A stretch of DNA of 36,552 nucleotides, from the UHGV virus genome UHGV-0029170, one strand, 5' to 3'. The notes under the pieces are model-generated. The model made no database searches, was not told the origin of the DNA, and saw only the letters and a list, made by a program, of their open reading frames with translations. This stretch comes from a virus. Below, piece after piece: positions 691 to 36,420 of this stretch (positions are counted from its first letter, which is position 1; each line of letters starts with the position of its first letter). Made by a program: the position numbers and the translations under genes.

Positions 691-718
691 TTGTCATTCG
701 CATGGTTGCGTGTATAAT
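691..718 (+). promoter_or_regulatory. sigma70-like promoter candidate (TTGTCA-16 nt-TATAAT) for the plus-strand unit starting at 768
   Basis: TTGTCA at 691-696, 16-nt spacer, TATAAT at 713-718; lies in the divergent gap between the helicase start (677) and ORF 768. Confidence 0.4.
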
Positions 719-756
719 ACAGAGCAAATTTTATCGTGTTTAACAAAAAGTGCTGT
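700..756 (-). promoter_or_regulatory. Degenerate copy of the conserved cassette (Box A CAGCACTTTTTGTTAAAC) upstream of the helicase gene
   Basis: Reverse complement reads cAGCACTTTTTGTTAAACACGAT...TATTATAC, 20-30 nt upstream of helicase ATG at 677. Confidence 0.35.
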
Positions 757-767
757 GAGGTTAAATT

Positions 768-1169
768 ATGGAACAAATGGCAAAGGTAGACAAGCGAACT
801 TTGAACGGCAATAACGGGACGTCACGCGGGAAAGATAAGAAGCCCCGCAAGAAGCCGACAGGCTATTATGTCCTGAAGGATGAAGTAAGGGCGGGACTGA
901 CTACCAGAATGGAATTGGTGATCGAGGCATACGGCGGCATCGCCAAAACAGCAAAGGAGTTGGGCGTTAGCATCCAAGTTGTTCAGCAGTGGATTAAGCG
1001 CGGCATGATTTCAGCCGATGGTGCTTACTTGGTGCATAAGAGTTACCGCCGCAATGACTGCAAAGGCTTCAGGGCTTCATTTTGCCGCCCGGATCTCAGA
1101 TTCGACAGCAACGGCAAGCCGATTACGCGCCGATGCGACCGCCGCGAAATGCTCCGCGTAGTCCGATAG
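768..1169 (+). CDS. Putative HTH DNA-binding protein (Cro/YdaS-like motif), Arg-rich C-terminus
   Basis: ATG at 768 preceded by GAGG 8 nt upstream; segment IAKTAKELGVSIQVVQQWIKRG looks like a helix-turn-helix; function inferred. Confidence 0.4.
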   Translation: MEQMAKVDKRTLNGNNGTSRGKDKKPRKKPTGYYVLKDEVRAGLTTRMELVIEAYGGIAKTAKELGVSIQVVQQWIKRGMISADGAYLVHKSYRRNDCKGFRASFCRPDLRFDSNGKPITRRCDRREMLRVVR

Positions 1170-1189
1170 CACAATTTGACTAACTACCA

Positions 1190-1229
1190 AACGCCTACCG
1201 GGTTATGATTCTCGCGTGGGCGTTTTTTA
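1190..1229 (+). terminator. Possible weak intrinsic terminator after ORF 768-1169
   Basis: AACGCC (1190-1195) pairs with GGCGTT (1219-1224), followed by T-run 1224-1229; loop is long, so weak. Confidence 0.25.
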
Positions 1230-1244
1230 TTTGGAGGTTATGAC

Positions 1245-2703: not shown

Positions 2704-3750
2704 ATGGCTGAAGCAATTTTCAGGGCATACACAAGCAGTGAATTGACCAACGAGCAATATCACGATCCTAATTCCTGGTGCGCGGAGTACGTTAGCGGCT
2801 CAAGCCTCGGCGAGATTTACGCAACATCCCCGGCGCACTGGAAATACAAGGTGCGCGAGGAAACCGCCGCGCTGGCGTTCGGAACCTGTTCGCATACCTG
2901 TATGCTTGAGACGGCAAAATTTAATGGCGAGTACCTGCGGGCGACTTCTCCTGGCGAGGTTAAAGATCTGATTACGTCGAAGTCGGCATTGTCTGCGAAG
3001 CTGAAAGCGTGTGGCCTGATTGGGACGTCCAACAAGGATTACCCGGAACTTCTGGAAATGGCATATCGCGCCGGGATTGACGTAAATGTTTGGTGGGCGA
3101 TTGAACTTTGCGACGAAAGCGCCGCGATGAACTCCGGGCGCAAGCTGGTTAAGGATGTTGATTTCGATGCCGTTGTTCAAATGCGAAGCGTGATGCTGGC
3201 CAACCCGCGACACGCCGCGTGTATCGAATCGCCTACCGCACAGCGTGAATTGTCAATCTTCGGTGAGATCTTCGGCGTCAAGGTCAAGGTTCGACTCGAT
3301 CATGTTGACGTTGTTTCAGATCCAGAACTAATCAAGGAGTGTGGGTTCAACCCGGATGAGGTTTTCGAGGTCGTGGTGATTACCGACTACAAAACCACGC
3401 AATCTTCCAAGCCTGACGATTTCGGGCGACTCGCCTTCAACTTGGGCTACTATCTCAAGATGGCATTGCAGCGCGATCTGTTCGTGAAGACTTACAACGA
3501 AAAACGCCCGGTAGTTGTCAGACTGCTAACGCAGGAGAAAAAATCACCGTTTGCTCCGCTGGCGTTCACCCTGACCAGCCAGCAGATCGAGATCGGTCGC
3601 AAGCAGTATCAAAGCGTGATTCATCAGTATGCGGAATGCGTGAAGCATGATTCATGGCCATCATATGAGTCAAACGCGGCGGAAGTCGTTTTGCCTACTC
3701 CGCAGTTTGTGAAATACATGTTCCCGGACGTATACGGCACAAATAGCTAA
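2704..3750 (+). CDS. PD-(D/E)xK family nuclease (putative recombination exonuclease)
   Basis: 348-aa ORF with RBS; D-x(n)-D/E-x-K-like segment ...DHVDVV...VVVITDYKTT; immediately upstream of Erf and SSB. Confidence 0.55.
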   Translation: MAEAIFRAYTSSELTNEQYHDPNSWCAEYVSGSSLGEIYATSPAHWKYKVREETAALAFGTCSHTCMLETAKFNGEYLRATSPGEVKDLITSKSALSAKLKACGLIGTSNKDYPELLEMAYRAGIDVNVWWAIELCDESAAMNSGRKLVKDVDFDAVVQMRSVMLANPRHAACIESPTAQRELSIFGEIFGVKVKVRLDHVDVVSDPELIKECGFNPDEVFEVVVITDYKTTQSSKPDDFGRLAFNLGYYLKMALQRDLFVKTYNEKRPVVVRLLTQEKKSPFAPLAFTLTSQQIEIGRKQYQSVIHQYAECVKHDSWPSYESNAAEVVLPTPQFVKYMFPDVYGTNS

Positions 3751-3809
3751 ACACTGGTTCGCACTTGTGATATAGTGCGCATTACCAATCAGGAAAAGGA
3801 AACTTTATC

Positions 3810-21326: not shown

Positions 21327-21407
21327 GTGAAACTCCTGTTTGTGTGTTTTGACTTAACGAGATGAAGAATAGCACGAATTGCTAAACGGTCAAAGGTTTT
21401 TTTAACG

Positions 21408-26867: not shown

Positions 26868-27395
26868 TTAAATCTTGTCCAGAATGTTGCTAACAGCCTT
26901 CTCCAATACTTCATCGGTGATCTCGTTCTTGTTGCCAGCAACGGCGTCAATGTTGAGAACAGCAGGCTTATCGATGCCCATTTCCTTGCCGACGAACGAG
27001 GCGTTAATCATGCCGACGGCAGCAAGCTGGAATTTCTGCTCATAGATTACAGAGTCGATAAACTCCATGACCGGGGCATAGTTCGGGTCGTGGCGATAGC
27101 GTGTAAGCGTCGACTGGTTCACGCCACAAAACAGGCTTAACCCTGTGATCGTGAAAATGCGCGGCTTGTTCACTCCCCACTCGTTAACATCGCCCTGAAA
27201 AGTGGCGGTTTCCGCAGCCTTGATGGCGTTTTCTTCGGCCCACTGGAAATAGCCCTTCGCGATCTCGAAGAATTGTTGTGGCGTCATTTCGGCGGTTCGC
27301 CCCAGCACTACGCCAAAATCTTTTTCGTACAGCGCCTTGAAATTGCCTTCGAAGTGCGATTTCGTTACGCGTTTTTTGCGTTCTTCAGACATTGT
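26868..27395 (-). CDS. Terminase small subunit, putative
   Basis: ATG at 27395 with GGAGG RBS (MSEERKKRV...); first gene after the terminator/promoter junction at ~27.42-27.47 kb. Confidence 0.5.
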   Translation of the reverse strand, partial: TMSEERKKRVTKSHFEGNFKALYEKDFGVVLGRTAEMTPQQFFEIAKGYFQWAEENAIKAAETATFQGDVNEWGVNKPRIFTITGLSLFCGVNQSTLTRYRHDPNYAPVMEFIDSVIYEQKFQLAAVGMINASFVGKEMGIDKPAVLNIDAVAGNKNEITDEVLEKAVSNILDKI

Positions 27396-27422
27396 TAATC
27401 CTCCTTCTGTGTTGAGTTGCGA

Positions 27423-27469
27423 GTATACCAGATTGCAGGCACAAAAAAACCCGCCGAAGCGGGTTATGT
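27423..27469 (-). promoter_or_regulatory. Terminator hairpin (27448-27465) followed by extended -10-like TGgTATACT: early/late junction
   Basis: Minus strand: AACCCGC-TTCG-GCGGGTT + T7 directly after stop at 27470, then CTGGTATACTCGCAA and RBS/ATG of terminase small subunit. Confidence 0.5.
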
Positions 27470-27733
27470 TCATATCAGTTTGTTACGCCGCTTCAGTGTT
27501 TTCTGAAGTGATGCAAAAGGCTCACAGTCAACATACGGGAGCGGCGAAAAAGCAATTCGTTTTGCGATACCTTCCGGATCGCCAATTTTTTCCCAACGCG
27601 CAGTTTTCTTATTGTACATCATGGCAGCAAAAGTGCCTTCATGTACCCGCTTTGAAAGGCGCTCAACAAGGCGAGCCGCGCCAACGTGATAGCCTATGAC
27701 AAGCATTAAAAAAGCAACAATCAGAGTTACCAT
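27470..27733 (-). CDS. Small membrane protein (N-terminal TM helix)
   Basis: 87 aa; MVTLIVAFLMLVIGYHVGAA hydrophobic start; stop/start overlap with upstream 62-aa ORF. Confidence 0.4.
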   Translation of the reverse strand: MVTLIVAFLMLVIGYHVGAARLVERLSKRVHEGTFAAMMYNKKTARWEKIGDPEGIAKRIAFSPLPYVDCEPFASLQKTLKRRNKLI

Positions 27734-27921: not shown

Positions 27922-28058
27922 AACCCCTCAATAAAAGCCCCTAAGCGGGGCGCGACTTGCGGACTATCGCCGCCTCTTGTGTCTACGTGACCACGATACC
28001 CGGTCAGCGACAGTGCGTCAATAGGCGGTTGATTCGTTCGCTTGCTTTTTGACCTTTA

Positions 28059-29558: not shown

Positions 29559-29621
29559 GTTTCGTTTCGATGGGGTAACTATACCAGCTTACCCCCGATC
29601 GGTTTTAGCAATTCGTGCTAT
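29559..29621 (-). promoter_or_regulatory. Conserved promoter/operator cassette copy
   Basis: Minus strand: ATAGCACGAATTGCTAAAACCGATCGGGGGTAAGCTGGTATAGTTACCCCATCGAAACG. Confidence 0.5.
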
Positions 29622-29817
29622 TTGGCAGGCCATCCATGACTTTCAGTTTAACCCACTCGATGCGCCCCTGCGCCTCGGCAATGCCTAACTCATAACTCGC
29701 GCCTTTCTGGTGAGGGCGAACCCGCCAGCGTTTGCCGCCCTCATCGCACCAGTAATAGAACTTCCCGCGAAAGCGCACGTTGTAGGTAAAGCCGTTGAAC
29801 CACATTTTGATGTTCAT
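29605..29817 (-). CDS. Hypothetical protein (basic, Trp/Tyr-rich)
   Basis: 70 aa; stop TAA lies inside Box A of the downstream cassette. Confidence 0.4.
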   Translation of the reverse strand: MNIKMWFNGFTYNVRFRGKFYYWCDEGGKRWRVRPHQKGASYELGIAEAQGRIEWVKLKVMDGLPNSTNC

Positions 29818-29825
29818 GTATCACC

Positions 29826-30050
29826 TCACCACTTAAAATTGCGGGAAATGATCACGCTGCCAACGGCGGAAAGTGCAATCCAGGGCCAGCACAACACAGG
29901 ATAAAGATCGTCTTTGTCGGTAGAGTCCGCAGATTTCAGGAAGGCCCGCGTGAGGAAACAGCCGCACGCATACAGGGCCAGAATAAGAACCACCAGGGCA
30001 ATAATTGCGTAAATCATGATGTTTTTCCTTGTCTTTGGTGGGGTAGCCAT
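29826..30050 (-). CDS. Small membrane protein (two predicted TM segments)
   Basis: IMIYAIIALVVLILALYACGCF and WPWIALSAVGSVIIS hydrophobic stretches; RBS GGAG 7 nt before ATG 30050. Confidence 0.4.
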   Translation of the reverse strand: MATPPKTRKNIMIYAIIALVVLILALYACGCFLTRAFLKSADSTDKDDLYPVLCWPWIALSAVGSVIISRNFKW

Positions 30051-30082
30051 GCAGCAACTCCGGTTAGTGTTTGTGGTTCGTG

Positions 30083-30403
30083 CTATTGCTGGAGTTTTGC
30101 GAAGGCGTCGGCCATCATGCGCAAAACTCGCGCGTGATCTTCAACGTCATAGCCAGGTTCGGTGCGCATGATTTCCCGAATCTTCTCGATCGTGGCGATA
30201 GCCTCCTGAAGTTCACCAGTCAGGAAAGCAACCTGCTGTTCAAGCTCCGCTATTCGTGAGAACGGTTCACGCATGAATGATTCGCACGAGGCATCACTAA
30301 GAGCCCAATCGATCCCGGCGCGAATAACGGCTTTTAACAGCGGGTCGTCGTCTTTGGCGAAGTTGTCGGACGGGATCAGGTGTATGATTTGTGTGGTGTT
30401 CAT
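30083..30403 (-). CDS. Hypothetical protein
   Basis: Start set to ATG 30403 (MNTTQII...) because ORF-track start lies inside the upstream cassette. Confidence 0.4.
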   Translation of the reverse strand: MNTTQIIHLIPSDNFAKDDDPLLKAVIRAGIDWALSDASCESFMREPFSRIAELEQQVAFLTGELQEAIATIEKIREIMRTEPGYDVEDHARVLRMMADAFAKLQQ

Positions 30404-30430
30404 GGTTAGGATCCATCTCTTGTTAGTGTT

Positions 30431-30479
30431 GGGATAGTATGCACCATCCCCGGACGTTCGTTTTAGCAATTAGTGCTAT
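30431..30479 (-). promoter_or_regulatory. Conserved promoter/operator cassette copy
   Basis: Minus strand: ATAGCACTAATTGCTAAAACGAACGTCCGGGGATGGTGCATACTATCCC. Confidence 0.45.
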
Positions 30480-30967
30480 CAAAGGGCGTCTAATTCCGCC
30501 TCAATGAATTCGTACCACTCGTGGCCGTTTGCGGGATCGTGTTCGGTTCCATGCAGCCAGTCCGTATGGGTGGAACAGAATTCGCCGGATTTGTTGAAGT
30601 AAAAGTCGGCCCATGACCGCGCCCAATCGCCGACGCCAGCGAACGTGCCGAACTTGCGGATGTATGCGTCGGTGTATCCGCGCTGCTTCGCTATGCGCTT
30701 CAGTGCGCGAACCAGCAACTTACGCGGAGACGCCTTTGACACTTTCCGCAGGTGGAAAAGCGCGTTTTCCGGCTCGCTACCAACACGGATGGTCAAATCT
30801 TCGTCAGCATCCAGCGGATTGACGATAAATTCGTTAAGGTATCCGCCCTGGATTACGTGCGCTGTGCCTAGTGGCTCGCGCACCTCGACGGCATCGAATA
30901 CGCAGCCGATAAGGTGGCGCTCACGTTCGCGGGCCGCATTGACAACCATAAGTTTGACGGTTTTCAT
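30479..30967 (-). CDS. Hypothetical protein
   Basis: 162-aa ORF; start ATG overlaps stop of upstream gene (TAATG). Confidence 0.45.
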   Translation of the reverse strand: MKTVKLMVVNAARERERHLIGCVFDAVEVREPLGTAHVIQGGYLNEFIVNPLDADEDLTIRVGSEPENALFHLRKVSKASPRKLLVRALKRIAKQRGYTDAYIRKFGTFAGVGDWARSWADFYFNKSGEFCSTHTDWLHGTEHDPANGHEWYEFIEAELDAL

Positions 30968-31185
30968 TATCGGATCTCCTTCACCTGGTGAACTTCGAGA
31001 AGGTTGGTTACTTCACGGATGCCGCAGTCCTCGAATTCCTCTTCGGCCCCTGCTGCCACCCTTAATCTGGTAAACCCGGCGTCATCGTCGATTGCGACTT
31101 CAATAACCTGCTCGCTCGAAAGCTCGATGTATGCGCAGCCGTAGGAATTCAGCTCTTCCAGCAGTGCGATTAAATTGTCGTTCAT
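30967..31185 (-). CDS. Hypothetical small acidic protein
   Basis: 72 aa, net charge about -12 (DDD, EEEFED runs); ATG 31185 with AGGAG RBS. Confidence 0.45.
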   Translation of the reverse strand: MNDNLIALLEELNSYGCAYIELSSEQVIEVAIDDDAGFTRLRVAAGAEEEFEDCGIREVTNLLEVHQVKEIR

Positions 31186-31212
31186 TGCGTTGCTCCTGAT
31201 TGGATTGTTCAC

Positions 31213-31268
31213 TTCAGTAACGCCACTTTATCAAATGACGTTACGGCAGTTTTAACAAAAAGTGCTAT
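31213..31268 (-). promoter_or_regulatory. Conserved cassette copy (variant with GTAACG...CGTTAC inverted repeat)
   Basis: Minus strand: ATAGCACTTTTTGTTAAAACTGCCGTAACGTCATTTGATAAAGTGGCGTTACTG. Confidence 0.45.
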
Positions 31269-31450
31269 TCTTTTTCGCCGCTGAACGCTGCCCGATACCC
31301 ACGGCGGAACCCGTTAATCTCCGACAGGCGGCATACGCCAATAATCATGCACAGCATTCCGATCGTCTGCCAGCCTACGTGGTCATGCAGTGCCAGGCCG
31401 CCCAGGAAGAAAGCCCAATACAGCGCGAGTTTCTTTTTGCTTACTTTCAT
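31265..31450 (-). CDS. Small membrane protein
   Basis: 61 aa; hydrophobic LALYWAFFLGGLAL and IGMLCMIIGV segments. Confidence 0.4.
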   Translation of the reverse strand: MKVSKKKLALYWAFFLGGLALHDHVGWQTIGMLCMIIGVCRLSEINGFRRGYRAAFSGEKE

Positions 31451-31692
31451 ACTTTCACCTCAAATAGAACGTTGTTTTCGTATGGCCTATTGGCATACAT
31501 GGCGATCTTTTCGTCCGGCATACGGCAGGCGGGCCAGAATTCTTCGTCCTCAGTAGTTACCTGGTCGTCCTGCAAAATCCATACTTCATCAAGGCCAGGG
31601 CCGAACCTGGCTTCATACTCGCGGCCAGGTGTGAAATAGGTGGATAGCGGCGAATAGCCAGCGTGCGTGCAAATTACTTTTACCGTTTCCAT
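31447..31692 (-). CDS. Hypothetical protein
   Basis: 81 aa; start overlaps upstream stop (TAATG). Confidence 0.4.
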   Translation of the reverse strand: METVKVICTHAGYSPLSTYFTPGREYEARFGPGLDEVWILQDDQVTTEDEEFWPACRMPDEKIAMYANRPYENNVLFEVKV

Positions 31693-31994
31693 TAGTAGAT
31701 CCCGTTAGTCCAAACGTAGCCGTGTTCGATTATCTCGCGCAGCTTAACCTTCTTCGGCGCTGGATTTACTCCGTCTCCGCCAGTGTAGAACCCTGTTCCA
31801 TACGCAAAATGAACCTGCTTCGCGAACAGTCCGCCGCGCGCCTGGATGTAAAGTCGGTTGCGCATGGCCAGACCTCTAAGCGTGTTGACCTGCTCGATGG
31901 GGTCGCCTTTTACATTCGAGATCTTGCACATTACTGGCTTTTCGCCAAATTGCCCGGTTAAGCAGTGGCGGTCGAAGTCTGATAAACGTATCAT
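31692..31994 (-). CDS. Hypothetical protein
   Basis: 100-aa ORF in the co-directional array. Confidence 0.4.
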   Translation of the reverse strand: MIRLSDFDRHCLTGQFGEKPVMCKISNVKGDPIEQVNTLRGLAMRNRLYIQARGGLFAKQVHFAYGTGFYTGGDGVNPAPKKVKLREIIEHGYVWTNGIY

Positions 31995-32003
31995 CCAGAC
32001 ACC

Positions 32004-32375
32004 TCAAAGCTGATTTGCAAAGATGTGCCAGACGTGATCTTCTGGCGTGCGTTTCATTAGTTTGTGCGCCTTGCGTGCCATGCGCTTATAGTCGCGGGCG
32101 GTAAGTTTCGTGGGGTCGGCAACGAACGATTCAACAATTAACCCATCGCAATGATATTCCGGCAGCCATTCCCGATGGGTTCGCCATTCGTTGAAAGTGG
32201 TTAGCTGGATAACGGAATGCAAGTCACTGTGAAGGTGCTCCCCGCGCTCGCCGTAATGGAAAGCTCCGCGAATTTTGCCATCATTGCCTACGTGCAAAAG
32301 GTGAATGCGGCTTTTCTTGCCTTCGAAGTTGGTTCCGACGATGGCGACAACTGCGTTTTTGACGATCTGCTTCAT
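32004..32375 (-). CDS. Hypothetical protein (His-rich)
   Basis: 123 aa; first ORF downstream of cassette copy 32400-32448. Confidence 0.45.
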   Translation of the reverse strand: MKQIVKNAVVAIVGTNFEGKKSRIHLLHVGNDGKIRGAFHYGERGEHLHSDLHSVIQLTTFNEWRTHREWLPEYHCDGLIVESFVADPTKLTARDYKRMARKAHKLMKRTPEDHVWHIFANQL

Positions 32376-32399
32376 GGTGAATCTCCGTTGTTTGGTGTA

Positions 32400-32448
32400 T
32401 GGCCATTATGCCCGATCTGCTGACCGGGCGTTTAGCAAAAAGTGCTAT
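32400..32448 (-). promoter_or_regulatory. Conserved promoter/operator cassette copy
   Basis: Minus strand: ATAGCACTTTTTGCTAAACGCCCGGTCAGCAGATCGGGCATAATGGCC. Confidence 0.5.
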
Positions 32449-32646
32449 TCAGAAACAGAGCGCCTCACGCTCCAGGCTGGCCAGTGACGGAAAGCTGAAT
32501 TTTGTAACGTGGTACGAGCCGCCAACATAGCCGGAAATGCTGATATTGTTGAACTCAACCTCAACACTGATAATCTTCATGTTCTTGCTGAAGGCGTACA
32601 TTGCAAGCGCACGGTGCGCCCGCGCCAGGAATTCGAATTGGTTCAT
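32449..32646 (-). CDS. Hypothetical protein
   Basis: 65 aa; ATG overlaps upstream stop (ATGA). Confidence 0.35.
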   Translation of the reverse strand: MNQFEFLARAHRALAMYAFSKNMKIISVEVEFNNISISGYVGGSYHVTKFSFPSLASLEREALCF

Positions 32647-32900
32647 TTAAAGATCGCCCCTTTGATTTTGTTCCAGAAAGCGAATGGCTGACGCTGCGGC
32701 TTCAGTTCCACGATATCGTGATCATAGAATCCGCGATGCTTGCCGCAAAGGAGCGGCTGCACGCCATCCGTTACCATATCGCCAATGAAGAACCGCTTGC
32801 CGCTATCCATGAAGTAAAGGCCGTGGCATACGCCTGGCGCGGCATGAGTTGCGGTATCTGGCAGGCTGTATACCCTGCCGCGAGATTTGAATTGCTGCAT
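32643..32900 (-). CDS. Hypothetical protein
   Basis: Start set to ATG 32900 (MQQFK...) with AGGAGA RBS. Confidence 0.4.
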   Translation of the reverse strand: MQQFKSRGRVYSLPDTATHAAPGVCHGLYFMDSGKRFFIGDMVTDGVQPLLCGKHRGFYDHDIVELKPQRQPFAFWNKIKGAIFK

Positions 32901-32941
32901 TATCCTGTCTCCTTGCATAATTTGGTCGTTAATCGACTTCG

Positions 32942-32990
32942 TGATAATTATGCCCGATCCTCTGACCGGGCGTTTAGCAATGCGTGCTAT
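32942..32990 (-). promoter_or_regulatory. Conserved promoter/operator cassette copy
   Basis: Minus strand: ATAGCACGCATTGCTAAACGCCCGGTCAGAGGATCGGGCATAATTATCAC. Confidence 0.5.
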
Positions 32991-33307
32991 TTCAGGCCGC
33001 GAAGGTCAATCTTCGATCTTGCCCAATCAGGGAAGCGAGCCATTTCGCCAACCTGAACCATTTTGTTTCCGCCCGGCCCCTTATCCACCCATGAATCAGG
33101 CGAGTAGCTCAGTAGGCGAACATTTTCAACGGTCGACTCATAGGCCCAAATCGCCCCGTCTTCATCAATGGCAACCGTGTTAGTCCAAACTGGCACGTCA
33201 AGCGACTGCATATCGAACGTGCCAGGGATGTTAATCTGGAAGGCTACAACGTGGCGCTGCGTGATGGTGGCCACTACTTGCTCGCCGGATTTAACTTCGT
33301 TAATCAT
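32987..33307 (-). CDS. Hypothetical protein
   Basis: Start set to ATG 33307 (MINEVKSGEQ...) with AAGGAG RBS. Confidence 0.4.
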   Translation of the reverse strand: MINEVKSGEQVVATITQRHVVAFQINIPGTFDMQSLDVPVWTNTVAIDEDGAIWAYESTVENVRLLSYSPDSWVDKGPGGNKMVQVGEMARFPDWARSKIDLRGLK

Positions 33308-33317
33308 TGCGTTCTCC

Positions 33318-33530
33318 TTACAGGAACATTCCAGCCAGGCGCAGGCGGGTAATGATGCTATCCCGTTTAGCGCGCAGGCCATCATAGTAATCTTCCAGTT
33401 GCGCATCCCATGACGGCAGGTCAAGCATAAGATTCATTTCGTTGCACACCACCTTCAGCGCGTGGAAGTGTTGCTCTACCGCGCGACGGTGAAATGCTGC
33501 ATTGAGTGGGTTGTTTTGGTTGCCGATCAT
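33318..33530 (-). CDS. Hypothetical protein
   Basis: 70 aa; first ORF downstream of cassette copy 33545-33602. Confidence 0.4.
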   Translation of the reverse strand: MIGNQNNPLNAAFHRRAVEQHFHALKVVCNEMNLMLDLPSWDAQLEDYYDGLRAKRDSIITRLRLAGMFL

Positions 33531-33544
33531 GTTTACGCTCCTCT

Positions 33545-33602
33545 GTTTCGATGGGGTAATGATAGCGCATCACCCCGATTGCGTTTTAACAAAAAGTGCT
33601 AT
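33545..33602 (-). promoter_or_regulatory. Conserved promoter/operator cassette copy
   Basis: Minus strand: ATAGCACTTTTTGTTAAAACGCAATCGGGGTGATGCGCTATCATTACCCCATCGAAAC. Confidence 0.5.
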
Positions 33603-34093
33603 TACTGTGGGATCTGGAAGCAGAGTTCCCGCCAGTTGCGATGCTCGCGGCCAGTGTTGCCCAGGAAGCAGACTGTTCGCGCAATGTGGCCGTACTGCTC
33701 CGAACCGCGAATCCATTCGCCCAGGTAATCATTCGCGTCGTCGTCATCCGGCAGGCAGTGGCGCGGGCGCATCTTGAATGCGAAGACGTCGCCGTTACCG
33801 TCGATGGCAATGTGGGTGGCCCCGCCCTGGATGGCCGTCTGTGCGGTTGCAGTCGTGGTGCTTTTGTCGATGCCAGCCAGGAAGTTAGAGAATTCGTTCA
33901 TGGCCATGCTCTTTTGCTCCGGCTCCGCCTCGACAAGCAGAAGTGTATCGTTGCCGACCATCGCAAAGAAGATCGCCGCTGTCATATTCGACTTCTTCAC
34001 AATCTTGCCTTCGCGCTTGCGCATCATCACTGCGTCATCTTCCAGCCAGTAAATCAGGCCATTAAGGGTGTTGAGGTATTCGCGAGATTTCAT
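33602..34093 (-). CDS. Hypothetical protein
   Basis: 163 aa; RBS GGAGCA before ATG 34093; first ORF downstream of cassette copy 34110-34169. Confidence 0.45.
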   Translation of the reverse strand: MKSREYLNTLNGLIYWLEDDAVMMRKREGKIVKKSNMTAAIFFAMVGNDTLLLVEAEPEQKSMAMNEFSNFLAGIDKSTTTATAQTAIQGGATHIAIDGNGDVFAFKMRPRHCLPDDDDANDYLGEWIRGSEQYGHIARTVCFLGNTGREHRNWRELCFQIPQ

Positions 34094-34109
34094 TGTGGTG
34101 CTCCGTTGT

Positions 34110-34169
34110 TCGTTTCGATGGGGTTACTATAGCAAGCCGCCCCGATCGTGTTTTAACAAAAAGTGCTAT
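34110..34169 (-). promoter_or_regulatory. Conserved promoter/operator cassette copy (extended -10-like TGCTATAGT)
   Basis: Minus strand: ATAGCACTTTTTGTTAAAACACGATCGGGGCGGCTTGCTATAGTAACCCCATCGAAACGAAC. Confidence 0.5.
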
Positions 34170-34381
34170 TTGAAGTTGTGAACCTGGTTCCCGCCGCTGT
34201 GGTCGTCAATGTCAACGCCGTCGCAGGTGACGTAAAAGCCGCGAATTACGGTGAAGCGCCACTTGCCTAACCAGTGGAAGTATACGCCGTGCTCGCTGCC
34301 ATGGACGGCTTTGGTTGATGAGTATGGGATCGGCATCCCGGCGAAGGTGCGAAGTTTGGTTGTTGCTGAAAATCGTGGCAT
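34166..34381 (-). CDS. Hypothetical protein
   Basis: ORF 34166-34387; start probably ATG 34381 (AGGAGG RBS 7 nt upstream). Confidence 0.4.
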   Translation of the reverse strand: MPRFSATTKLRTFAGMPIPYSSTKAVHGSEHGVYFHWLGKWRFTVIRGFYVTCDGVDIDDHSGGNQVHNFK

Positions 34382-34450
34382 GGCCATTCCTCCTGGCGTT
34401 TGCCGTGCTGGTGGTGGGAATATAGCGCCACCGAAGCGGCGCTATTGTGA

Positions 34451-34558
34451 TTATTTACCCTGGCGCGCAAGGTAGCGCTCTTTGAGTTTCTGCCAGTGCC
34501 AGCGCATAACGTGTTCGTTATGGTAGTTGCTGGTTGAATATGGATTCTTCTTGCTCAT
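34451..34558 (-). CDS. Very small basic protein, about 35 aa (not in ORF track)
   Basis: Hand translation MSKKNPYSTSNYHNEHVMRWHWQKLKERYLARQGK; GGAG 8 nt upstream of ATG 34558; fills gap between neighbouring genes. Confidence 0.25.
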   Translation of the reverse strand: MSKKNPYSTSNYHNEHVMRWHWQKLKERYLARQGK

Positions 34559-34575
34559 CTTCATCTCCAGGTTGC

Positions 34576-34761
34576 TTACTTGATTCGAACTTCAACTTCA
34601 ATGTCGGACTGCGGCGCGAAGAGTTGGGCCTTTCCATTAACGCGAATGGTAAGAATGTTCCCCTTGCGATCTGCTGCGAGAACCAGGCGAAACTTGCCAG
34701 CAAACTTAACCATCATTCCCGGCTTAACTTCGCTCATCTTGATAACCTTATCCATCTTCAT
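34576..34761 (-). CDS. Hypothetical small protein
   Basis: Start set to ATG 34761 (MKMDKVIKM...) with GAGGTGA RBS; first ORF downstream of cassette copy 34770-34830. Confidence 0.4.
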   Translation of the reverse strand: MKMDKVIKMSEVKPGMMVKFAGKFRLVLAADRKGNILTIRVNGKAQLFAPQSDIEVEVRIK

Positions 34762-34769
34762 CACCTCAG

Positions 34770-34830
34770 TTCGTTGTCGATGGGTAAATAATACCGGATC
34801 TCGCCATCGGCGTTTTAGCAAAAAGTGCTA
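34770..34830 (-). promoter_or_regulatory. Conserved promoter/operator cassette copy
   Basis: Minus strand: ATAGCACTTTTTGCTAAAACGCCGATGGCGAGATCCGGTATTATTTACCCATCGACAACGAAC. Confidence 0.5.
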
Positions 34831-35037
34831 TCTTTCCACCTCGTGCATATCGCCAACCGAAAGATAATAAGCGATATCAAGGCGGCTCATTGTGGGATGA
34901 GGCCAGCCGCATTCATGCCAGATAACATCGCCCTCGCCTTTAGTCCACATGGTTTCGCCATCCCAGCGCCAAAGGCGGTTATTGAGGCGCGATCCGTAGA
35001 CCGCGCCAGGTTTTACATCGCTCGCCTTAAAATTCAT
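34828..35037 (-). CDS. Hypothetical protein
   Basis: ORF 34828-35088; likely start at internal ATG 35037 (MNFKASDVKPG...). Confidence 0.35.
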   Translation of the reverse strand: MNFKASDVKPGAVYGSRLNNRLWRWDGETMWTKGEGDVIWHECGWPHPTMSRLDIAYYLSVGDMHEVER

Positions 35038-35179
35038 AATCGACAACCCCGAACTCGTTAACGATCTGCGCCTTGTAAAAGCCACCATTTGCCGCCAGAT
35101 TGTAGCACGCCGCCACGGTCTCGAACTCGCGCACTTCCGGCTTGCTGTTTTCGTGTTCCCAGGTAATCAGAGTAATCAT
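35027..35179 (-). CDS. Hypothetical small protein, about 50 aa
   Basis: Start set to ATG 35179 (MITLITWEH...) with GAGGAAACC RBS, because ORF-track start lies inside the upstream cassette. Confidence 0.35.
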   Translation of the reverse strand: MITLITWEHENSKPEVREFETVAACYNLAANGGFYKAQIVNEFGVVDYEF

Positions 35180-35191
35180 TTCGGTTTCCTC

Positions 35192-35255
35192 GGTTCGTTG
35201 TCGATGAAGAGATAATACCCGATCGCTCTGACCGGGTTTTAACAAAAAGTGCTAT
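35192..35255 (-). promoter_or_regulatory. Conserved promoter/operator cassette copy
   Basis: Minus strand: ATAGCACTTTTTGTTAAAACCCGGTCAGAGCGATCGGGGTATTATCTCTTCATCGACAACGAAC. Confidence 0.5.
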
Positions 35256-36093: not shown

Positions 36094-36287
36094 GTGTTTC
36101 CCCCACATTTACGGCGTTTGTGTGTGTTTGGTAAGGCTATCTTACTGGCTCAAGGCCTTGTCGTCAAAGGGTTTGTGCGTGTGTGGTAAGATTCGGAAGC
36201 ATCCCCTATATACCCCTTTACATATATCGCGCGGCGGAACATCTAAAATTTACGGCTCTCGCAAGATGATTCCGGTAGCCATGCCGG

Positions 36288-36420
36288 GAGAAATCTTACC
36301 AAACATATATAGATAGAGAGAGTAATAATAATAATATTGTTATTTATCATATACTTATATATTTATTATAGTCTTATATTGGTCACTTTTTGTGCAATTT
36401 TCAGGTAAGATTTTTCCTCC
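36288..36420. repeat. AT-rich core flanked by inverted GGAGAAATCTTACC / GGTAAGATTTTTCC arms; partial inverted copy of 2367-2452
   Basis: 36288-36357 matches the reverse complement of 2367-2452 over ~70-85 bp (shared GGAGAAATCTTACCAA...AATAATAATAATATTRTTATTTATCATATACTTA); second arm at 36404-36417. Confidence 0.5.

What the first reader, a model, noticed from the sequence alone, without database searches (positions are those of the whole stretch)
29559..35255. GC-rich inverted repeat embedded in each cassette between Box A and the -10-like hexamer
Every copy carries a short GC-rich dyad in the same place but in two sequence flavours: CGATCGGGG...CCCCATCG (29559, 33545, 34110 copies) and GCCCGGTCAG-N-GATCGGGC (32400, 32942, 35192 copies); the 31213 copy uses GTAACG...CGTTAC. 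Conservation of pairing with changing sequence suggests selection for structure (RNA stem-loop in read-through transcripts, or a processing/attenuation site) rather than only for a protein-binding sequence. None is followed by a U-tract, so they are not classic intrinsic terminators.
Basis: seen in the sequence. Interest (0 to 1): 0.5.

Follow-up and report, generated by a model that had tools for sequence, protein, structure and literature searches.

The report
Stem-loops packed inside phage promoter cassettes
In this T1-like Klebsiella phage nearly every small early gene is preceded by a repeated promoter cassette with a GC-rich RNA hairpin squeezed into or around its -10 box; the pairing is kept while the sequence changes across the phage family, which most likely marks the 3' end of the upstream gene's transcript, much like the promoter/stem-loop cassettes known from T4-like phages.

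Summary
The dyads are real. Eight of the nine exact-Box-A cassettes at 29.5-35.3 kb (genes on the minus strand) fold well below shuffled controls (z -2.0 to -4.5). The placement given is only partly right. The GCCCGGTC...GATCGGGC type lies between Box A and the -10. The GGGG...CCCC and GTAACG...CGTTAC types straddle the -10 and end at position -1.

The window is a Webervirus (Drexlerviridae). The same cassette occurs in phage T1 and in many IMG/VR contigs. In 248 non-redundant cassettes, folding energy is -10.8 versus -5.5 kcal/mol for shuffles. Stem mismatches are G·T 63 versus A·C 9. GNRA/UNCG loops occur only in the sense orientation. A loop-selected subfamily shows compensatory covariation. 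So selection acts on a sense-strand structure, most simply RNA, not on a protein-binding palindrome.

The hairpins lie upstream of the predicted start site and are weaker where no co-directional gene lies upstream. I read them as attenuator or 3'-end stem-loops for read-through transcripts. They are analogous to T4-type PeSL cassettes but sit in a different promoter. Box A itself is already published as a 21-nt repeat of unknown function in phage TLS. The function is inferred, not shown.

The parts
35212..35255 (-). Cassette 1. Box A at 35238-35255 (ATAGCACTTTTTGTTAAA). Class A hairpin at 35217-35237 (ACCCGGTC-agagc-GATCGGGT). -10 TATTAT at 35212-35217.
   Evidence: -12.5 kcal/mol, z -2.6; the only listed copy that passes the terminator-like scan
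34778..34831 (-). Cassette 2. Box A at 34814-34831. Weak long-loop dyad CGATGG (34804-34809) / CCATCG (34778-34783) around -10 TATTAT (34788-34793).
   Evidence: (z -1.1, not significant alone)
34419..34445 (-). Hairpin without Box A: ATAGCGCCGC-TTCG-GTGGCGCTAT at 34422-34445, overlapping a TATATT hexamer at 34419-34424. It looks like a partly deleted cassette.
   Evidence: (-20.3 kcal/mol, z -3.2)
34116..34169 (-). Cassette 3. Box A at 34152-34169. Class B hairpin at 34116-34148 (CGAT-C-GGGG...CCCCATCG) with -10 TATAGT (34126-34131) in the loop.
   Evidence: (-13.1, z -2.7)
33553..33602 (-). Cassette 4. Box A at 33585-33602. Class B hairpin at 33553-33576 (GGGGTGATG-cgctat-CATTACCCC, one G·U). 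-10 TATCAT at 33559-33564 overlaps the 3' arm.
   Evidence: (-14.2, z -3.2)
32947..32990 (-). Cassette 5. Box A at 32973-32990. Class A hairpin at 32952-32971 (GCCCGGTC-agag-GATCGGGC, one G·U). -10 CATAAT at 32947-32952; its C closes the stem.
   Evidence: (-15.0, z -3.3)
32405..32448 (-). Cassette 6. Box A at 32431-32448. Class A hairpin at 32410-32429 (GCCCGGTC-agca-GATCGGGC). -10 CATAAT at 32405-32410.
   Evidence: (-15.9, z -3.8)
31211..31268 (-). Cassette 7. Box A at 31251-31268. Class B hairpin at 31217-31244 (GTAACGTCA-tttgataaag-TGGCGTTAC) plus an outer helix reaching 31211-31250. -10 TAAAGT at 31225-31230 is preceded by TGn. This copy belongs to the subfamily with formal covariation.
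   Evidence: (-16.0, z -4.5)
30431..30479 (-). Box A at 30462-30479. Class B hairpin at 30431-30450 (GGGATGGTG-ca-TACTATCCC). -10 CATACT or TACTAT lies inside the hairpin.
   Evidence: (-11.8, z -2.5)
29568..29621 (-). Cassette 9. Box A at 29604-29621. Class B hairpin at 29568-29601 (CGAT-C-GGGGGTAA...TTACCCCATCG). -10 TATAGT at 29578-29583 is preceded by TGG, an extended -10.
   Evidence: (-14.0, z -1.96)
30020..30087 (-). Decayed cassette. It keeps AATAGCACGAA but has lost TTGYTAAA, the -10 and any hairpin.
   Evidence: (z +0.36)
714..756 (-). Box A promoter of the helicase operon (ACAGCACTTTTTGTTAAA, -10 TATTAT). The gene upstream is divergent, and there is no hairpin.
   Evidence: (z -0.05); Skenny annotation
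1166..1233 (+). Plus-strand cassette after the Cro-like regulator gene. Box-A-like at 1166-1183. Hairpin at 1189-1225 with TATGAT in the loop, followed by a U-tract: a bona fide terminator form of the same design.
   Evidence: (-20.1, z -4.1); the T1 homologue is annotated as a terminator
3734..3787 (+). Plus-strand cassette. Degenerate Box A at 3734-3751. Hairpin at 3755-3787 (CGCACT/AGTGCG inner helix with TGGT/ACCA outer helix) bracketing TATAGT at 3771-3776.
   Evidence: (-11.2, z -2.5)
36139..36167 (-). Canonical sigma-70-type promoter (TTGACG-17-TAAGAT) ahead of the first gene of the arm. It has no Box A and no hairpin. Included as context and contrast.
   Evidence: Skenny has TTGACA-17-TATTAT at the same place
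27937..27951 (-). Classic intrinsic terminator (GCCCC-gctta-GGGGC followed by TTTTATT) at the end of the early arm. It shows what a full terminator looks like in this genome.

Best explanation
Each cassette is a compact composite intergenic unit, read on the gene strand in this order:
- the stop codon of the upstream gene;
- Box A (ATAGCAC-N3-TTGYTAAA, at about -50 to -33);
- a 20-nt spacer;
- a -10 hexamer (TAnnnT);
- a 6-nt discriminator ending in C-1/A+1;
- a C/A-rich leader, then the Shine-Dalgarno sequence and ATG about 31 nt after the hexamer.

The GC-rich dyad is an RNA stem-loop encoded on the sense strand. It is packed into the only positions that are free to vary, namely the spacer (class A) or the spacer plus discriminator (class B, with the -10 in the loop or 3' arm). 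It ends at or before position -1, so transcripts started at the cassette's own promoter lack it. Only RNA reading through from upstream promoters carries it, about 20 nt after the upstream stop codon.

There it most likely acts as a leaky terminator or attenuator, and/or as a 3'-exonuclease barrier, that defines and stabilises the 3' end of the upstream cistron and insulates the downstream promoter.

Shown here: the structure is under selection, it is sense-strand specific, and its position relative to the promoter signals is fixed. Inferred: the transcription start site, the read-through, and the effect on RNA.
For: - Hairpins far exceed chance, both in the window and in 248 non-redundant cassettes from T1, Skenny and IMG/VR contigs.
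- There is sense-strand asymmetry: G·T 63 versus A·C 9, and GNRA/UNCG loops only in the sense orientation.
- Compensatory covariation is seen in a subfamily selected on loop sequence only.
- The geometry is fixed. The -10 starts 20 nt after Box A in 502 of 653 cassettes. G-14 is at 82%, C-1 at 81% and A+1 at 84%. Stem 3' ends cluster at the first bases of the hexamer or at -1.
- Hairpins depend on an upstream co-directional ORF. With an ORF of 60 codons or more, mean energy is -12.4 kcal/mol and 73% are at or below -10. With no such ORF the values are -8.2 and 39% (p 0.0045).
- In the window, the helicase promoter, whose upstream gene is divergent, has no hairpin. The Box A promoters that head the right arm in T1 and Skenny also have none.
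- The same slot sometimes holds a full terminator with a U-tract (window 1189-1233; other examples). The T1 GenBank record annotates three class A hairpins and that homologue as rho-independent terminators.
- In the analogous PeSL cassettes of T4-type phages, a stem-loop placed between -35 and -10 or over the -10 cut lacZ read-through as strongly as rrnB T1 (PMC2839356).
Against: - No transcript data exist for any of these phages in the sources I could search, so start sites, read-through and 3' ends are all inferred.
- Most hairpins lack a U-tract. Class B tails have 1.0 T in 8 and class A tails 3.4 in 8, with only 22% reaching 5 or more. Efficient intrinsic termination by E. coli-type RNA polymerase is therefore doubtful.
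- The decayed cassette at 30020-30087 follows a co-directional gene yet has lost the hairpin together with the promoter. This hints that the hairpin may be tied to the promoter rather than to the upstream mRNA.
- 39% of cassettes with no long upstream ORF still fold at or below -10 kcal/mol.
- G·T pairs and GNA-type loops also stabilise single-stranded DNA hairpins, so the asymmetry does not strictly prove RNA.
Confidence: 0.55

Rival explanations
1. The dyad is a DNA structure intrinsic to the promoter. It would extrude from the 22-bp gap between TTGYTA and the -10, as a non-template-strand hairpin or a cruciform, and present the -10 hexamer single-stranded or at a fork junction. That would help sigma-70 polymerase open a promoter that lacks a properly spaced -35.
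For: - The dyads are locked to the -10. Stems end at the first bases of the hexamer or at -1, and in class B the hexamer sits in the loop.
- The TTGYTA to -10 distance is 22 bp, too long for a normal -35 contact.
- The canonical promoter at 36139-36167 has no hairpin.
- The decayed cassette lost the promoter and the hairpin together.
Against: - A cruciform needs both strands to pair, but mismatches are G·T 63 versus A·C 9, and the antisense strand folds worse.
- Box A promoters that head a transcription unit lack the hairpin, so it is not needed for promoter function.
- The two positional modes are also what filling of the unconstrained positions would give.
- Neither the TLS genome (PMC11447400) nor the Skenny annotation shows a phage RNA polymerase of the N4 type that reads hairpins.
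Confidence: 0.12
2. The hairpin is an RNA processing or 5'-protection element. RNase E would cut read-through RNA in the A/U-rich Box A segment, and the hairpin would then sit at the new 5' end and stabilise the downstream cistron. Alternatively it marks another endonuclease site.
For: - The hairpin is a sense-strand RNA structure.
- Box A is A/U-rich and lies immediately 5' of the hairpin.
- The lack of U-tracts fits processing better than termination.
Against: - The stems are 6-9 bp, too short for RNase III.
- There is no evidence of cleavage.
- The occasional replacement of the hairpin by full terminators points to 3'-end formation rather than 5' protection.
Confidence: 0.12
3. The stem-loop mainly serves genome plasticity. 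Together with Box A it would provide a conserved linker, or a template-switch or recombination hotspot, that shuffles small early genes, as proposed for PeSLs. Any effect on RNA would be secondary.
For: - Homology breakpoints between this window and related loci fall in the cassettes in 38% of HSP ends and 26% of unique bins, while the cassettes cover 9.4% of the region (p 2e-4).
- L007 carries the same cassette as 32431 in front of a different gene.
- PeSL crossovers were mapped in or next to the loop (PMC2839356).
Against: - Breakpoints also pile up at gene boundaries without cassettes, so the proper null is gene boundaries.
- Recombination needs shared sequence, yet the hairpin is the least conserved part of the cassette.
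- Compensatory changes and the G·U bias indicate selection on pairing itself.
Confidence: 0.08
4. The dyads are palindromic operators bound by a phage or host dimeric DNA-binding protein.
For: - They have dyad symmetry next to promoter elements.
- Two sequence flavours recur within this window.
- GATC is over-represented in the spacers.
Against: - Arm sequences differ almost completely among cassettes while pairing is kept.
- The strong G·T over A·C asymmetry and the sense-only tetraloops argue against it.
- The registers of the stems vary.
Confidence: 0.03

Closest known systems
PeSL (promoter-early stem-loop) cassettes of T4-type phages RB49, phi1, PST and nt-1 (Arbiol et al. 2010, PMC2839356; Comeau et al. 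2014, PMC4122927)
   Same: - Both are repeated intergenic cassettes of about 80-100 bp between small ORFan early genes.
- Both have the order: upstream stop codon in an A/T-rich stretch, upstream promoter box, -10, Shine-Dalgarno sequence, ATG.
- In both, a G/C-rich stem-loop with G·T pairs most often lies between the upstream box and the -10 or overlaps the -10.
- In both, mosaic junctions coincide with the cassettes.
   Different: - The phage family is unrelated (T1-like siphoviruses) and there is no sequence similarity.
- The upstream box is the 18-21-nt Box A, 22 bp from the -10, instead of a consensus -35 at 17 bp.
- Terminator and promoter activity and mini-circle formation were shown experimentally for PeSLs and not here.
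The 21-nt direct repeat aaATAGCACnnnTTGnTAAAA of phage TLS, also noted in T1, Rtp and Rogue1 (PMC11447400)
   Same: This is Box A itself. The consensus is the same, the orientation follows transcription, and it lies about 76 nt before start codons.
   Different: That paper treats the repeat alone. It suggests a stoperator, an enhancer site or an UP-like element, and lists terminators separately. In the section and table I read, it does not report the fixed -10 at 20 nt or the embedded hairpins.
Rho-independent (intrinsic) terminators
   Same: The cassette hairpins have a G/C-rich 6-9 bp stem, a short loop that is often GNRA or UUCG, and a position about 20 nt after a stop codon. Some cassettes carry a full U-tract, and the T1 record annotates several as terminators.
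   Different: Eight of the nine window copies and all class B hairpins lack the U-tract.
Intercistronic 3' stabiliser hairpins (for example REP-type stem-loops, or the hairpins left at T7 early mRNA 3' ends); from general knowledge
   Same: Both are stable stem-loops without a U-tract lying just downstream of a cistron in polycistronic RNA.
   Different: The cassette hairpins are much shorter than RNase III substrates, are embedded in a promoter, and have no evidence of processing.
Hairpin-containing early promoters of phage N4; from general knowledge
   Same: Both have a small hairpin placed within a promoter.
   Different: N4 hairpins are read by a virion RNA polymerase on single-stranded template DNA. 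No phage RNA polymerase is annotated in these genomes, and the cassette has clear sigma-70-type -10, G-14 and C-1/A+1 signals.

Membership tests
PeSL-type composite promoter/stem-loop cassette | [quoted passage not shown] | tested here: met
   There are nine exact copies between small minus-strand ORFs. Eight of ten neighbouring proteins have no Pfam hit at E<=0.01. The start codon lies a median of 31 nt after the hexamer.
PeSL-type composite promoter/stem-loop cassette | Contains a sigma-70 consensus early promoter (-35 and -10 about 17 bp apart) | tested here: not met
   The -10, G-14 and C-1/A+1 signals are present. The only -35-like hexamer (TTGYTA) is 22 bp away. A canonical promoter scan finds nothing above shuffles.
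PeSL-type composite promoter/stem-loop cassette | A stable G/C-rich stem-loop between the upstream box and the -10, or overlapping the -10 | tested here: met
PeSL-type composite promoter/stem-loop cassette | The stem-loop terminates or attenuates read-through, and the cassette drives transcription (reporter assays) | not testable with these tools
   This needs reporter fusions or transcript mapping.
PeSL-type composite promoter/stem-loop cassette | The cassettes are the junctions of gene insertion, deletion and replacement | tested here: inconclusive
   Breakpoints are 3-4 times enriched in the cassettes, but they are also frequent at cassette-free gene boundaries.
Intrinsic (rho-independent) terminator | A G/C-rich stem of 5 bp or more with a 3-8 nt loop, shortly after a stop codon | tested here: met
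   Class A hairpins meet this. Class B loops average 9 nt.
Intrinsic (rho-independent) terminator | A U-rich tract (5 or more U in 8 nt) directly after the stem | tested here: not met
   Only 35217-35237 among the nine early-arm copies passes. Family-wide, 22% of class A and 0% of class B tails pass. The feature is met at 1189-1233.
Palindromic operator (protein-binding dyad) | Conserved half-site sequence, symmetric on both strands | tested here: not met
   Arm sequences vary freely with compensatory changes, and G·T outnumbers A·C 63 to 9.
N4-type hairpin promoter | A phage-encoded RNA polymerase that recognises the hairpin | tested here: not met
   The annotated genomes of the relatives Skenny and T1 have no RNA polymerase gene, and the TLS paper reports none.
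Rfam RNA families | A match to a curated covariance model | tested here: not met
   No hit in the cassettes at E<=1.

The most novel reading that the evidence does not exclude
The Box A cassette would be a distinct promoter class of T1-like phages. The dyad-symmetric Box A (TAGCA-N5-TGYTA), centred near -42, would replace the -35 as the site of a class-II-type activator; candidates are host Lrp, whose consensus it matches at 13 of 15 positions, or an immediate-early phage protein. The RNA hairpin packed into the promoter would make the upstream polymerase stop exactly on top of the next promoter, coupling termination to re-initiation (polymerase recycling) along the chain of small early genes.
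Probability: 0.1. Interest if true: 0.75.

Novelty: new variant of a known kind. Interest (0 to 1): 0.5.

Why it matters
T1 is one of the classical T phages, yet how T1-like phages (Drexlerviridae, which include many Klebsiella and E. coli therapy candidates) programme transcription is still unknown. A 2024 re-annotation of phage TLS found only three sigma-70-like promoters and an unexplained 21-nt repeat.

This analysis shows that the repeat is the upstream half of a rigid promoter-like unit (a -10 exactly 20 nt away, then G-14 and C-1/A+1). It also shows that a covarying RNA hairpin is built into that unit across the family. This gives a concrete, testable map of transcription units and of 3'-end signals for some 15-20 sites per genome.

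It is also a second, independent example of the promoter-plus-stem-loop cassette design known from T4-like phages. That suggests convergent evolution of self-contained, insulated expression modules for shuffling accessory genes. Such modules could be useful parts for phage engineering.

Tried and rejected
- Canonical promoter and terminator scan of 27.5-36.5 kb. Neither class exceeds shuffles, and the cassettes are invisible to a TTGACA-N16-18-TATAAT model.
- Fixed-column covariation over all 248 cassettes. No column pair reaches z>4 because the stems sit in many registers. I replaced this with per-sequence shuffles and a loop-selected subfamily.
- Rfam at a permissive threshold. Nothing lies in the cassettes.
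- Pfam on ten neighbouring proteins, looking for a Box A binder. Only a Cro/YdaS-like HTH at 768-1169 and a dATP/dGTP pyrophosphohydrolase turned up; the small early proteins have no hits.
- Sigma-54 and sigma-32 readings of Box A and of CCCCAT. I rejected both by hand because the spacing does not fit.
- Literature. Four keyword searches gave nothing on Drexlerviridae promoters or transcriptomes. A search for the motif as literal strings gave no relevant paper. The T1 genome paper is not held. The TLS paper was found only on the eighth search.
- GATC/Dam idea. GATC is enriched in spacers (39 versus 14.7 expected), but so are overlapping words such as ATCG, TCGG and CGGG, so it may only reflect a common arm sequence.
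- First IMG/VR scan with Box A alone. It returned many single chance matches. Those loci were kept only where a -10 and a Shine-Dalgarno/ATG followed.

Full report
**Identity and orientation.** The region is 92-94% identical to Klebsiella Webervirus genomes (Drexlerviridae, T1-like), such as XF_ER21, Skenny, B1 and TAH8. In Skenny it corresponds to the left arm of about 24 small genes ahead of the terminase genes. In the window these genes lie on the minus strand, so the cassettes must be read on that strand. Each one runs as follows: upstream stop codon, ATAGCAC-N3-TTGYTAAA ('Box A'), about 20 nt, a TAnnnT hexamer, a C/A-rich leader, GGAG, ATG.

**The observation.** Nine exact Box A copies lie between 29604 and 35255. 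Folding the 40 nt after each one gives stable hairpins for eight of them (-11.8 to -16.0 kcal/mol, z -1.96 to -4.5). The 34814 copy gives only a weak long-loop dyad (z -1.1).
- The GCCCGGTC-N4/5-GATCGGGC type (32410-32429, 32952-32971, 35217-35237) fills the spacer and ends on the first base of the hexamer.
- The GGGG...CCCC type (29568-29601, 33553-33576, 34116-34148), the GTAACG type (31217-31244) and the missed copy at 30431-30450 put the hexamer in the loop or the 3' arm, and their 3' arm occupies the discriminator.
- A hairpin without Box A followed by TATATT sits at 34422-34445 (z -3.2).
- A decayed cassette at 30020-30087 has neither a -10 nor a hairpin.
- Box-A-like cassettes with sense-strand hairpins also occur on the plus strand, at 1166-1233 (hairpin -20.1 kcal/mol, z -4.1, followed by a U-tract) and at 3734-3787 (z -2.5).

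**A family-wide data set.** Scans of IMG/VR for Box A, alone and with a downstream -10 and leader, returned many Drexlerviridae-like contigs with several cassettes each. Phage T1 itself has about 20 copies. Among 738 Box A matches, 653 have a good TAnnnT within 15-24 nt, and in 502 of these it starts exactly 20 nt after the 18-mer. With the hexamer set at -12 to -7, three positions that were not used for selection are conserved: G-14 (82%), C-1 (81%) and A+1 (84%). The start codon lies a median of 31 nt after the hexamer. This supports reading the cassette as a promoter that starts at that A. The only -35-like hexamer, however, is 22 bp from the -10, and a canonical scan does not see these sites.

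**Is the dyad more than chance, and on which strand?** After clustering to 248 cassettes that differ at more than 6 of 40 positions, the results are as follows.
- The 40 nt around the hexamer fold at -10.8 kcal/mol, against -5.5 for dinucleotide shuffles (p 4e-35), and 60% have z below -2.
- The sense strand folds better than the antisense strand in 168 cassettes against 75 (p 3e-12).
- In a strand-symmetric dyad search, 170 cassettes have six or more Watson-Crick pairs. Their internal mismatches are G·T 63, A·C 9 and other 23 (p 4e-11).
- Of 40 tetraloops, 12 are GNRA and 4 are UNCG, against 0 and 1 for the reverse complements.
- Arm sequences are almost unrelated between cassettes.

A covariation scan over fixed columns of the whole set fails, because the registers differ. 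A subfamily chosen only by its loop (ATTTG or ATTAG before the hexamer; 41 sequences, including the window's 31251 copy) does show it:
- 88.7% of cells are paired, against 69.9% in shuffles;
- there are 78 double-sided changes against 24.7;
- 0 of 500 shuffles reach the observed values;
- slid registers give 34-45% paired;
- six of the seven inner pairs carry compensatory changes.

The pairing is therefore under selection, and on one strand. That rules out an ordinary palindromic operator and argues against a cruciform.

**Position and context.** Stem 3' ends are bimodal.
- Class A ends at hexamer position -1 to +2 (63 cassettes). The loops are 4-5 nt, and the tail is the hexamer itself, with 3.4 T in 8.
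- Class B ends at +11 or +12 in hexamer coordinates, which is position -1 of the promoter (78 cassettes). The tail has 1.0 T in 8, and 41 of 78 have TGn.

Both modes are what filling of the unconstrained positions between Box A, the hexamer and the conserved start and leader would give. Because the whole hairpin lies upstream of A+1, only RNA started further upstream can contain it.

Consistent with that, hairpin strength depends on what lies upstream. Cassettes that follow a co-directional ORF of 60 codons or more average -12.4 kcal/mol, and 73% are at or below -10. Those with no such ORF average -8.2, and 39% are at or below -10 (p 0.0045; the unfiltered version is). In the window, the helicase promoter at 714-756, which follows a divergent gene, has no hairpin. 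The Box A promoters heading the right arm of T1 and Skenny also have none. The first promoter of the left arm is a canonical TTGACG-17-TAAGAT with neither Box A nor a hairpin.

**Relation to termination.** Yet the same slot holds full terminators in some cassettes. One is window 1189-1233. Others are the CCCGC-TTCG-GCGGG-TTTTG forms and the seven hairpins with a U-tract listed. The T1 GenBank record annotates three class A hairpins and the homologue of 1189-1225 as rho-independent terminators. A classic terminator closes the arm at 27937-27951. I therefore read the cassette hairpins as a graded series of 3'-end elements for read-through RNA. Whether they terminate, pause or merely block exonucleases cannot be decided here. 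One counter-example is noted: the decayed cassette lost its hairpin although a gene lies upstream.

**Comparison with what is known.**
- Box A itself is published. Phage TLS has 21 copies of aaATAGCACnnnTTGnTAAAA, about 76 nt before start codons. The repeat is also seen in T1, Rtp and Rogue1, and its function is unknown; a stoperator, an enhancer site or an UP-like element were suggested (PMC11447400). That text mentions neither the fixed -10 nor the hairpins.
- The closest functional analogue is the PeSL of T4-type phages. [quoted passage not shown] It contains G-T pairs, was shown to reduce lacZ read-through like rrnB T1, and is implicated in modular gene shuffling (PMC2839356; PMC4122927).
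- Here, homology breakpoints against related loci are 3-4 times enriched in the cassettes, and L007 has the 32431-type cassette in front of a different gene. Breakpoints are also common at other gene boundaries, so this point stays open.
- The cassette is not a PeSL homologue. The phage family and the sequence differ, and the consensus -35 feature is not met.
- No Rfam family matches.

**Verdict.** The structural interpretation is supported by covariation and by strand asymmetry. The most likely role is an attenuator or 3'-end hairpin for read-through transcripts, embedded in the next promoter (confidence about 0.55). This makes it a new variant of a known design. It is of moderate interest, mainly because it turns the unexplained repeat of T1-like phages into a testable transcription-unit model.

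Noticed in passing
window 29604-35255 (-), 739-756 (-), 21369-21386 (+); L122 (T1); L001 (Skenny): Box A is itself dyad-symmetric (TAGCA-N5-TGYTA). With the hexamer at -12 to -7 it is centred near -42, the position of a class II activator site. TAGCACTTTTTGCTA matches the E. coli Lrp consensus yAGhAwATTwTdCTr at 13 of 15 positions (the consensus was checked in PMC5554404). This is a lead only; no binding test was possible.
   Followed up: partly
window 21369-21386 (+); T1 L122 around 15086 and 18850 (-): Exact Box A copies lie antisense to the structural genes in intergenic gaps of the late module. In the window the copy sits next to a terminator hairpin (GGGGCCGAAGCCCC flanked by A- and T-runs on both sides, so possibly bidirectional). 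The following sequence (gcgtcaaag/cggtcaaag...ttttt) is conserved between the T1 15086 site and L050 356. The copy could be an antisense promoter or a protein site.
   Followed up: no
T1 L122 8362-8379 (+); L050 around 2498 (-): A Box A variant (ATAGCACTAAATGTTAAA) sits only 16 nt before the terminase small-subunit start codon. It has no -10 and no hairpin, so Box A may have a role that is independent of the promoter.
   Followed up: no
window 36139-36167 (-) and 36300-36400: The first gene of the early arm has a canonical sigma-70-type promoter (TTGACA-17-TATTAT in Skenny) instead of a Box A cassette. A very A/T-rich stretch lies just upstream. This suggests an immediate-early promoter followed by Box A promoters, which may need an early product.
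   Followed up: partly
cassette spacers family-wide; window 29597-29600, 32414-32417, 32956-32959, 34141-34144, 35221-35224: GATC is over-represented in the 20-nt spacers (39 of 248 against 14.7 expected). It has preferred positions at -7 and at -17 to -11 relative to the hexamer. These phages encode a Dam-like methyltransferase. Overlapping words are equally enriched, so this may only reflect a common arm sequence.
   Followed up: partly
window 30020-30087 (-): This is a decayed cassette. AATAGCACGAA is retained, but the second half of Box A, the -10 and the hairpin are all gone, although a co-directional gene ends just upstream.
   Followed up: partly
Box A middle triplet and Y position (213 cassettes): The N3 triplet and the Y base co-vary. 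GAA goes with C (72 against 5 with T), while TTT goes with T or C (61 and 38). TGTTA would still pair with TAGCA through a G·U pair, so a weak RNA hairpin within Box A cannot be excluded. Shared ancestry of paralogous cassettes is the simpler reading.
   Followed up: no
window 27444-27509 (-): There is a sub-threshold Rfam match to isrK, an Hfq-binding sRNA (29.5 bits against a gathering score of 50, E 0.0028), at the junction of ORFs 26868-27473 and 27470-27733. It is probably chance.
   Followed up: no
L007 870-960 versus window 32360-32448: A nearly identical cassette (the 32431 type) is followed by a different gene in an IMG/VR relative. This is an example of gene replacement exactly at a cassette.
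   Followed up: partly
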